This document shows positions 2,361 through 2,774 of a stretch of 11,196 nucleotides of DNA, piece by piece. Both the position numbers and the translations under genes were made by a program. Source of the stretch: a virus (Duplodnaviria; Heunggongvirae; Uroviricota; Caudoviricetes); the IMG/VR virus record IMGVR_UViG_2541047814_000003, positions 1 to 11,196 of that record; one strand, given 5' to 3'. The notes beneath the pieces were generated by a model that was given only the letters and a program-made list of their open reading frames with translations, was not told where the DNA came from and did no database searches. Numbering within the stretch: position 1 is the first letter of the stretch; the number at the start of each line of letters is the position of its first letter.

Positions 2361-2774
2361 TCAGATGGTTTTCAGTATGCGATCGATGTCGCCGTCATCG
2401 CCCTGGTTTCTGCCATCGTATGCCATGCCAGCTGATACGGCTTGCGGGCTGTGCATGTCCATAAAGTTTTCAAAGGCTGCGGTAAGCTCTGGTGCAACCT
2501 TTGGGCGCTCCTGCTCTATGGTCATGTTCAGGATTTCACGAGCATTATCGACGCTAATACATGGCACGTTTGCCATTGCACGTAACAGCGGCTGATAGTC
2601 TTTATGCTCATGAAGCGCCATAATCGCATCAGCGCGCGGCTTGTCCTGCTCTTCCAGTTTGTTTAGTTGATATACGGCCTCATAGGTTGATAAACCTCTG
2701 TCAGCCATTGCCCGCGCTTCGGCTTTAAATTTACTCGCCAGCGGTAGCGTCATGATGCTTTCATTCGTTGCCAT
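2361..2774 (-). CDS. Hypothetical protein (137 aa), last gene of the head operon
   Basis: ATG 2774 with GGGGGA SD 12 nt after the decoration gene stop; followed 7 nt later by a terminator. No recognisable family. Confidence 0.6.
   Translation of the reverse strand: MATNESIMTLPLASKFKAEARAMADRGLSTYEAVYQLNKLEEQDKPRADAIMALHEHKDYQPLLRAMANVPCISVDNAREILNMTIEQERPKVAPELTAAFENFMDMHSPQAVSAGMAYDGRNQGDDGDIDRILKTI

What the first reader, a model, noticed from the sequence alone, without database searches (positions are those of the whole stretch)
2361..2774. Unknown 137-aa protein closing the head operon where lambda has no equivalent
Head-gene order here is E-like then D-like (reversed relative to lambda D-E), followed by this unrecognised gene and a terminator. 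It does not resemble recalled gpFI, gpFII or gpW, so it is a candidate satellite-specific morphogenesis or interference factor.
Basis: inference. Interest (0 to 1): 0.5.

Follow-up and report, generated by a model that had tools for sequence, protein, structure and literature searches.

The report
Satellite copy of lambda's head scaffold
The "unknown" 137-residue protein is a free-standing, protease-less copy of the C-terminal scaffold module that phage lambda carries in its gpC protease and gpNu3 scaffolding protein, so this E. coli phage satellite encodes a capsid protein, a decoration protein and a matching scaffold, although published knock-outs show no need for this module in laboratory transfer.

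Summary
The ORF is real: 2361-2774, minus strand, 137 aa, with a Shine-Dalgarno sequence. It follows an E-like capsid gene and a D-like decoration gene, and it is followed by a hairpin plus T-run terminator and then an exact lambda cosN. The window is an EcCICFT073-type phage-inducible chromosomal island (PICI). The gene is 93% identical to EcCICFT073 c1501.

Lambda does have an equivalent. The protein aligns end to end with the last 137 residues of a lambdoid gpC-type S49 protease-scaffold protein (BLASTP 3e-11). Its PHROG family (phrog_1999, 3.7e-65) is also hit by lambda gpNu3 residues 117-200 (2.7e-26). It is acidic and all-helical, with one full and one degenerate copy of the gpC/Nu3 repeat and an invariant C-terminal IDRILKTI.

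The gene occurs in 593 of 5426 complete E. coli genomes, essentially always inside the module 68-aa gene, E-like, D-like, 137-aa gene. Its dN/dS is about 0.24.

The NCBI name "head-tail connector" has no support from profiles or folds.

The most likely role is an internal scaffold for the island's own E-like capsid protein. Published work weakens any strong claim: deleting c1499 or c1500, or replacing c1498-c1501, does not affect transfer, and no small capsids were seen. This is a new member of a known kind, of moderate interest.

The parts
2361..2774 (-). Target gene: 137-aa stand-alone homologue of the C-terminal scaffold module of lambdoid gpC/gpNu3. It corresponds to EcCICFT073 c1501 (93% identical).
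   Evidence: ORF. It matches phrog_1999 at 3.7e-65 and the C-terminal part of phrog_53 at 1.7e-10. BLASTP to residues 416-493 of a CFT073 prophage gpC-like protein gives 37% identity, E 3e-11.
2778..2783 (-). Shine-Dalgarno-like GGGGGA a few bases upstream of the ATG. The gap to the D-like stop codon (2787-2789) is 12 nt.
   Evidence: Read directly from the sequence.
2330..2357 (-). Intrinsic-terminator-like hairpin (AAGGCCGGA-GAAA-UCCGGCUU) followed by a U-run, immediately after the stop codon. In lambda, cosQ occupies the corresponding position.
   Evidence: RNA fold gives -18.4 kcal/mol, z -2.15. The consensus scan did not list it.
2289..2300 (-). cosN: the exact lambda 12-nt cohesive end GGGCGGCGACCT. 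The next ~22 nt are nearly identical to the lambda left end. The target is therefore the last gene before the right end of the packaged island DNA.
2787..3122 (-). Lambda gpD-like head decoration gene (111 aa), the middle gene of the module.
   Evidence: Pfam HDPD 2.5e-17; phrog_49.
3134..4189 (-). Lambda gpE-like major capsid gene (351 aa). It is 44% identical to lambda gpE, and no phage record exceeds about 47% identity.
   Evidence: Pfam Phage_cap_E 2e-52.
4189..4395 (-). 68-aa first gene of the module, function unknown. Its stop overlaps the start of the capsid gene. It is possibly ribbon-helix-helix-like.
   Evidence: phrog_3255 8.4e-37, no Pfam match. Synteny is shown. The single-sequence AF2 model has low confidence.
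1613..2155 (-). Context: full-length Nu1-like small terminase subunit, just downstream of cosN. It is 34% identical to lambda Nu1 and is not related to RppA.
   Evidence: Pfam Phage_Nu1 9e-23.

Best explanation
The gene encodes a small, acidic, all-helical internal scaffolding protein. It is a free-standing copy of the C-terminal module that lambdoid phages carry at the end of the gpC prohead protease and, from an internal start, as gpNu3.

The island has no protease, portal or large terminase subunit. It carries this module together with its own gpE-like capsid protein and gpD-like decoration protein in one operon that ends at a terminator just before cos.

Shown: the homology, the domain architecture, the operon structure, the strict co-occurrence with the E-like and D-like genes, and purifying selection.

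Inferred: the invariant C-terminal peptide (IDRILKTI, the counterpart of ...VNDLLNTPV in lambda and ...VKMLMAMP in other lambdoid phages) docks on the inner face of the island's E-like capsid protein. The helical repeat body self-associates. Together they chaperone or nucleate shell assembly around a helper-supplied portal. The scaffold then leaves or is degraded by the helper gpC protease before cos-dependent packaging.
For: Homology:
- phrog_1999 is hit at 3.7e-65 over the whole protein, and the C-terminal part of the 'head maturation protease' family phrog_53 at 1.7e-10.
- phrog_1999 is also hit by lambda gpNu3 residues 117-200 (2.7e-26) and by residues 365-501 of a CFT073 lambdoid gpC (5.7e-68).
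- BLASTP to that gpC gives 37% identity over 83 residues, E 3e-11.
- An HMM built only from the stand-alone family finds that gpC as the sole hit among 498 six-frame ORF segments of lambda and two prophages (1.8e-12, three repeat matches).
- The alignment is collinear end to end.
- A profile search returns 'S49 family peptidase, partial', 'scaffolding protein' and 'capsid assembly protein'.

Physical properties:
- AF2 gives pLDDT above 90 for residues 1-90, all helical, with a flexible tail and a terminal helix at 128-136.
- The pI is 4.9, compared with 4.5 for Nu3.

Genomic context:
- The four-gene module is intact in 592 E. coli genomes, and the gene itself is full length in 591.
- The module is kept in islands with different replication modules and integration sites.
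- A divergent island keeps the synteny. There the capsid protein is 85% identical and D is 84%, but this protein is only 41% identical with IDRILKTI unchanged. A fast-evolving body with a fixed C-terminal anchor is the pattern expected of a scaffold.
- dN/dS is 0.24.

Background: lambda Nu3 interacts with E, B, C and itself (PMC3224144).
Against:
- The direct profile-to-sequence match to lambda Nu3 is weak (hhalign P 0.012, correct register). The link to lambda rests on PHROG profiles and on an intermediate gpC.
- In EcCICFT073, deleting the capsid gene (c1499) or the decoration gene (c1500) changed neither transfer nor lambda interference. No monomer-size DNA band was seen (PMC6092414).
- c1498-c1501 can be replaced by cargo. 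A scaffold role therefore has no demonstrated consequence with lambda, phi80 or the CFT073 helper.
- Which part of gpC/Nu3 actually contacts gpE has not been solved. No PDB relative exists.
Confidence: 0.6

Rival explanations
1. Decoy or competing scaffold aimed at the helper, in the manner of SaPI1 CpmB. The module would mimic the capsid-docking end of the helper's gpC/Nu3. It would compete for the helper's gpE or portal, either redirecting capsid size or keeping protease and scaffold out of helper proheads (interference).
For: It shares the C-terminal module of helper-type gpC/Nu3. It is shorter than Nu3: 137 aa against 201 aa, and against three repeats in some gpC proteins. Satellite scaffolds with helper-like C-termini are an established strategy (CpmB; reviewed in PMC6893505).
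Against: Identity to lambdoid gpC C-termini is only 37-39%, and the island carries its own 45%-diverged capsid protein, which is a more obvious partner. When EcCICFT073 genes were expressed singly, only c1503 inhibited lambda and phi80 (PMC6739421). No small-capsid DNA band was seen for EcCICFT073.
Confidence: 0.15
2. An inert remnant. The capsid module would be a decaying relic of a lambdoid ancestor that now serves only as dispensable DNA or a cargo slot.
For: The module is dispensable for laboratory transfer and has been replaced by cas9 or melA cargo. Natural 93-aa deletion variants exist (P0025, P0029, P0031). This particular island already carries a nonsense mutation in its SSB gene.
Against: Of 593 copies, 591 are full length, and the module is intact in 592 genomes. 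dN/dS is 0.06-0.32 for all four genes. Synteny is retained at 41% identity. The Shine-Dalgarno sequence and terminator are intact.
Confidence: 0.12
3. A head-tail connector (adaptor) protein, as many NCBI records name this family.
For: The only support is the name 'phage head-tail connector protein' carried by many cluster members.
Confidence: 0.03

Closest known systems
Lambda gpNu3 scaffolding protein and the C-terminal region of the gpC (S49) prohead protease
   Same: The C-terminal module is homologous: the repeat RIMxxxEAxGRExxAxxLAxxPGMTVxxARxIL, then a flexible tail, then a short hydrophobic terminal helix. Both are acidic and all-helical. Both are encoded next to the D and E genes.
   Different: Here it is a separate gene. 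It is not nested in frame in a protease gene, and the island has no S49 domain. It is shorter (137 aa against 201 aa), with one full and one degenerate repeat. Its gene order is mirrored (E-D-scaffold instead of scaffold-D-E). Identity to the nearest phage versions is only 37-39%, and direct similarity to lambda itself is weak.
EcCICFT073 c1501 (Fillol-Salom et al. 2018, ISME J; PMC6092414)
   Same: It is 93% identical, 137 aa long, and in the same position after c1499 (capsid) and c1500 (decoration). It is the same gene family in the prototype Gram-negative PICI.
   Different: In the papers I could read, c1501 has no assigned function. It is used as a landmark for the tetA marker, which primer sequences place just after its stop codon, and it is part of a replaceable 'adaptable module'. 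The island here carries a Nu1-like TerS instead of RppA downstream.
SaPI1 CpmB (satellite-encoded internal scaffold)
   Same: Both are small helical satellite proteins related at the C-terminus to a phage scaffold, and both are expected to dock on a capsid protein.
   Different: CpmB acts on the helper's capsid protein and makes T=4 shells. Here the satellite also brings its own capsid and decoration proteins, and no size redirection has been observed for the prototype island. There is no sequence relationship.
cf-PICIs (capsid-forming PICIs, for example EcCIEDL933)
   Same: Both are E. coli PICIs that encode capsid-building proteins of their own.
   Different: cf-PICIs carry a complete HK97-type set: TerS, TerL, portal, protease, capsid and connectors. 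This island has only a lambda-type capsid protein, decoration protein, scaffold and TerS, so it would still need the helper's portal, protease and TerL.

Membership tests
Lambdoid gpC/gpNu3 C-terminal scaffold module (PHROG 1999; C-terminal part of PHROG 53; PHROG 8399) | Significant sequence or profile similarity to the C-terminal ~85-137 residues of gpC/Nu3 | tested here: met
   phrog_1999 3.7e-65 and phrog_53 1.7e-10. Lambda Nu3 residues 117-200 hit phrog_1999 at 2.7e-26, and a lambdoid gpC (residues 365-501) at 5.7e-68. BLASTP 3e-11. HMM 1.8e-12. Direct hhalign to lambda Nu3 alone is only P 0.012.
Lambdoid gpC/gpNu3 C-terminal scaffold module (PHROG 1999; C-terminal part of PHROG 53; PHROG 8399) | The ~40-residue helical repeat (RIMxxxEAxGRE..LA..PGMTV..AR.IL) followed by a tail ending in a short hydrophobic helix | tested here: met
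   There is one full repeat (residues 47-83) and one degenerate copy (14-38). The family HMM matches all three repeats of a gpC protein. Natural 93-aa variants are deletions between the two copies. AF2 helices fit this layout.
Lambdoid gpC/gpNu3 C-terminal scaffold module (PHROG 1999; C-terminal part of PHROG 53; PHROG 8399) | Encoded in frame at the 3' end of the S49 protease gene (nested Nu3 start), upstream of D and E | tested here: not met
   It is a stand-alone gene downstream of E and D. No S49 peptidase is present anywhere in the window.
Lambdoid gpC/gpNu3 C-terminal scaffold module (PHROG 1999; C-terminal part of PHROG 53; PHROG 8399) | Scaffolding activity: binds the capsid protein and portal, is required for correct prohead assembly, and is absent from mature heads | not testable with these tools
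   This needs co-expression, pull-down, EM and particle proteomics.
Phage head-tail connector / adaptor proteins (gpW, gpFII, gp6-like) | Match to a connector family profile | tested here: not met
   No Pfam hits at E up to 0.1. No NCBIfam hits at E up to 1. hhalign to lambda W and FII gives P 0.5 and 0.65.
Phage head-tail connector / adaptor proteins (gpW, gpFII, gp6-like) | Connector fold | tested here: not met
Satellite capsid-size-redirecting scaffolds (CpmB-like, functional class) | C-terminus resembles that of the helper's scaffold | tested here: inconclusive
   Identity to lambdoid gpC C-termini is 37-39% and the terminal-helix pattern is similar. The natural helper of this island is unknown.
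Satellite capsid-size-redirecting scaffolds (CpmB-like, functional class) | Produces satellite-sized capsids | not testable with these tools
   Published data for EcCICFT073 report no monomer-size DNA band and packaging in full-size capsids (PMC6092414; PMC6893505).
EcCICFT073-type Gram-negative PICI (genomic context) | int, alpA, a primase-type replication gene, a lambda-type cos site, a size near 11 kb, and one shared direction of transcription | tested here: met
   The island lies between clpS and cspD in the closest genome.

The most novel reading that the evidence does not exclude
The four-gene block (68-aa protein, E-like capsid, D-like decoration, Nu3-like scaffold), together with the island's own Nu1-like TerS and cos, would be a working partial head kit. 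With the right natural helper, these PICIs would build shells from their own capsid protein on a stolen portal, possibly small shells sized for about 11 kb. Alternatively, they would poison capsid assembly of particular lambdoid phages. Either way this would be an intermediate between classical PICIs and capsid-forming PICIs, one that laboratory helpers (lambda, phi80) fail to reveal.
Probability: 0.2. Interest if true: 0.65.

Novelty: new member of a known kind. Interest (0 to 1): 0.35.

Why it matters
About one complete E. coli genome in nine, including O157:H7, CFT073 and Nissle 1917, carries this module. Its capsid and decoration genes have been known since 2018, but no function has been found for them. 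If the third gene is the cognate scaffold, the module is a coherent shell-building unit (capsid, cement and scaffold) rather than two stray homologues. That gives a concrete, testable hypothesis for why it is kept under purifying selection. It also gives a defined handle for experiments: the invariant C-terminal peptide. In addition, it corrects a misleading database name ("head-tail connector").

Tried and rejected
1. Head-tail connector (NCBI name). Rejected: no Pfam or NCBIfam hit and no fold match.

2. gpW, gpFI and gpFII. No similarity.

3. Direct BLASTP to lambda Nu3. No meaningful hit. The link needed an intermediate gpC and PHROG profiles.

4. PDB sequence search. Nothing, even at E up to 10.

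5. I suspected that the published 'c1501::tetA' marker disrupts this gene, which would have undermined the conclusion that the module is dispensable. The primer sequences in the supplement show that tetA was inserted immediately after the stop codon, so the ORF is intact. I dropped the idea.

6. Co-folding the capsid protein with this protein as a linker fusion.

7. The search of 1.84 billion representatives found only 9 hits with E up to 0.001, so the stand-alone family is narrow. Reaching the phage relatives needed a profile.

8. The 68-aa and 93-aa neighbours show no similarity to lambda head proteins. Single-sequence AF2 of the 68-aa protein was low confidence.

9. Rfam. No known RNA in the window.

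Full report
**Observation.** The ORF exists as described: 2361-2774 on the minus strand, ATG start, 137 aa. It has a GGGGGA ribosome-binding site and lies 12 nt after the stop of the preceding gene. The two genes upstream on the same strand are a Phage_cap_E protein (3134-4189, Pfam 2e-52) and a lambda-D-type decoration protein (2787-3122, 2.5e-17). The order is therefore E then D, mirrored relative to lambda. Directly after the stop codon there is a 9-bp-stem hairpin followed by a T-run (-18.4 kcal/mol, z -2.15).

**Context.** The window is an EcCICFT073-type phage-inducible chromosomal island.
- All on the minus strand, it carries an integrase (9958-11196), an AlpA-like gene (9339-9635), a D5-type primase (5849-7681), an SSB, PerC, the four-gene head module, a Nu1-like TerS (1613-2155) and a 93-aa gene.
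- The closest complete genome has the island between clpS and cspD.
- An exact lambda cohesive-end sequence GGGCGGCGACCT lies at 2300-2289 on the minus strand. The following ~22 nt are almost identical to the lambda left end.
- The target is therefore the last gene before the right end of the packaged DNA, and terS is the first gene after the left end.
- The 'terminator-like' site at 2302-2287 is cosN itself.

**What the protein is.** Pfam and NCBIfam give nothing, but PHROGs does.
- phrog_1999 ('unknown function') is matched at 3.7e-65 over the whole length. The C-terminal part (positions 495-567 of 583) of phrog_53, 'head maturation protease', is matched at 1.7e-10.
- I compared it with the gpC-type S49 peptidase of a lambdoid prophage of E. 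coli CFT073, which is 52% identical to lambda gpC. Residues 49-131 align with residues 416-493 of 501 at 37% identity, E 3e-11.
- Scanning the phage proteins against PHROGs closes the loop. Lambda gpNu3 residues 117-200 hit phrog_1999 at 2.7e-26, and residues 365-501 of the CFT073 gpC hit the whole phrog_1999 profile at 5.7e-68.
- A multiple alignment is collinear from the first to the last residue of the target with the last 137 residues of that gpC, and with the last ~85 residues of lambda Nu3.
- An HMM built only from stand-alone PICI proteins finds that gpC as its only hit among 498 six-frame ORF segments from the lambda head region and two prophages (1.8e-12). It matches each of the three repeats.
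- A profile search of 5.8 billion proteins returns 'S49 family peptidase, partial', 'scaffolding protein' and 'capsid assembly protein'.
- The direct link to lambda Nu3 alone is weak: BLASTP finds nothing, and hhalign gives P 0.012 in the correct register. Membership therefore rests on profiles and on an intermediate sequence.
- Lambda W, B, D, E, FI, FII, Nu1, Z and U were run as controls. Eight gave P 0.10-0.82. B gave P 0.029, but over only 15 aligned columns against 67 for Nu3.

**Architecture.**
- There is one full copy of the gpC/Nu3 repeat (about residues 47-83, RADAIMAL...NVPCISVDNAREIL) and one degenerate copy (14-38).
- The repeats are followed by a tail that resembles the gpC tail (TAAFENFMDMHSP...). 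The protein ends in IDRILKTI.
- Natural 93-aa variants (P0025, P0029, P0031) are deletions between the two repeat copies (AEARAMA / LLRAMA), which confirms the internal repeat.
- AF2 with a 30-sequence alignment gives mean pLDDT 77. Values are above 90 for residues 1-90, all helical. The tail is low confidence and carries helices at 95-107 and 128-136.
- The pI is 4.9, compared with 4.5 for Nu3.

**Distribution and selection.**
- The gene is in 593 of 5426 complete E. coli genomes and is full length in 591.
- The whole module (68-aa gene, E-like, D-like, target) is in 598 genomes, with at least 80% coverage in 592. The target therefore practically never occurs without the module.
- The module is retained in islands with a primase or a RepA-type helicase, and at the clpS/cspD or phoQ sites.
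- Mean dN/dS across six islands is 0.24 for the target, 0.11 for E-like, 0.06 for D-like and 0.32 for the 68-aa gene.
- In 1.84 billion representative proteins, only 9 hits reach E up to 0.001. One is a distant stand-alone homologue (P0040, 41% identity).
- Its contig has the same gene order. There the capsid protein is 85% identical, D is 84% and the 68-aa protein is 63%, while the target has diverged to 41% with IDRILKTI unchanged. A fast-evolving body with a fixed C-terminal peptide is what is expected of a scaffold with a terminal docking motif. That reading is an inference.
- The island's capsid protein is only 44-47% identical to any phage capsid protein in 50,697 phage records. This is similar to the 37-39% identity of the target to phage gpC tails. 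The module is therefore an old, separate lineage and not a recent capture.

**What is published.**
- The supplement of Fillol-Salom et al. 2018 lists c1501 of EcCICFT073 as a 137-aa protein. The CFT073 gene is 93% identical to the target.
- c1499 and c1500 were noted as capsid and decoration homologues. Deleting either one changed neither transfer nor lambda interference. No PICI-monomer DNA band was seen, and the authors concluded that packaging occurs in full-size capsids (also PMC6893505).
- Expressed singly, only c1503 (RppA) blocked lambda and phi80 (PMC6739421).
- c1498-c1501 has been replaced by cas9 or melA cargo in transferable islands.
- I first suspected that 'c1501::tetA' disrupts the gene. 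The primers show insertion immediately after the stop codon, so the gene is intact in those experiments.
- I found no paper that assigns c1501 a function or relates it to Nu3.

**Mechanism.**
- *Best supported:* the protein is a cognate internal scaffold for the island's E-like capsid protein. Lambda Nu3 binds E, B, C and itself (PMC3224144). By homology, the target should dock on the capsid protein through its C-terminal end and self-associate through the helical repeats. The island lacks a portal, protease and TerL, so any shell would have to be built on helper parts, and the scaffold would be removed by the helper protease or by exit. The homology and the genetic linkage are shown. The binding, the assembly role and the fate of the scaffold are inferred.
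- *Rivals:* a decoy acting on the helper's gpE or gpB in the manner of CpmB; an inert remnant; and the connector role implied by the NCBI name.
- *Main weakness:* the module is dispensable in laboratory tests. This is the chief evidence against any strong functional claim, and it is why the small-capsid or partial-head-kit reading is only a minority possibility.

**Verdict.**
- The interpretation that lambda has no equivalent is refuted. The idea of a morphogenesis factor survives in a more specific and more ordinary form.
- This is a new member of a known kind, a Nu3-type scaffold, with two unusual features. It is a stand-alone gene without a protease, and it sits in a satellite that brings capsid, decoration and scaffold proteins but no portal.

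**Limits.**
- There are no binding or assembly data.
- I could not see Figures 1A and S3 of the cited papers.
- Structure searches are uninformative for this kind of extended helical protein.

Noticed in passing
window 2289-2300 (- strand), extending to about 2267: The exact lambda cosN cohesive-end sequence GGGCGGCGACCT is present. About 22 further bases are nearly identical to the lambda left end. It lies between the target's terminator and the Nu1-like terS gene. The promoter/terminator scan had flagged it as a 'terminator-like' site.
   Followed up: yes
window 1613-2155 (-): This island carries a full-length Nu1-like small terminase subunit (34% identical to lambda Nu1 over 178 residues) where EcCICFT073 has the unrelated RppA (no BLASTP similarity). 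It therefore belongs to the TerS-encoding PICI subgroup that was not mobilised in the 2018 study.
   Followed up: partly
window 835-1326: There are five copies of a ~31-nt repeat ending in TCAGC(A/G)AGTTACCGC at irregular spacing, plus duplicated 51-60-nt blocks. They lie at the left edge of the island, downstream of the 93-aa gene. They may be iterons or protein-binding sites. Their function is unknown.
   Followed up: no
window 4423-4454 (-) and 4479-4508 (-): A perfect 14-bp-stem palindrome (AATCATAACTGGAT/ATCCAGTTATGATT) followed by a T-run sits between a promoter-like site and the 68-aa first gene of the head module. It could be an operator or a regulated terminator controlling the module.
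   Followed up: no
window 4189-4395 (-): The 68-aa first gene of the module (phrog_3255, no Pfam match) has its stop overlapping the start of the capsid gene. It occurs as two allele classes (dN about 0.2 between them). A short N-terminal strand-like segment plus two helices suggests a ribbon-helix-helix fold, but the single-sequence AF2 model has low confidence (pLDDT 64).
   Followed up: partly
window 5077-5319 (-): The SSB gene is cut short at 80 aa by a TGG-to-TGA nonsense change relative to the 136-aa gene in the closest relative (L001). This copy of the island may be partly decayed.
   Followed up: yes
proteins P0025, P0029, P0031 (E. coli): Natural 93-aa variants of the target lack residues of about 24-67. 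They arose by deletion between the two internal repeat copies (AEARAMA / LLRAMA).
   Followed up: partly
window 4610-4627 (-) compared with 2336-2357 (-): The terminator hairpin after PerC (AGCCGGAGCAATCCGGCT plus a T-run) is nearly the same sequence as the one after the target gene (GGCCGGAGAAATCCGGCT plus a T-run).
   Followed up: no
database names of P0001, P0004, P0006, P0007 and others: Many NCBI records call this family 'phage head-tail connector protein', while RefSeq genomes call it 'hypothetical protein'. No profile or fold evidence supports the connector name.
   Followed up: yes
window 8282-9328 (-): This 348-aa mechanical ORF overlaps the region where relatives annotate small genes on both strands (Icd-like, YlcI/YnfO-like). 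It is probably not a real gene.
   Followed up: no
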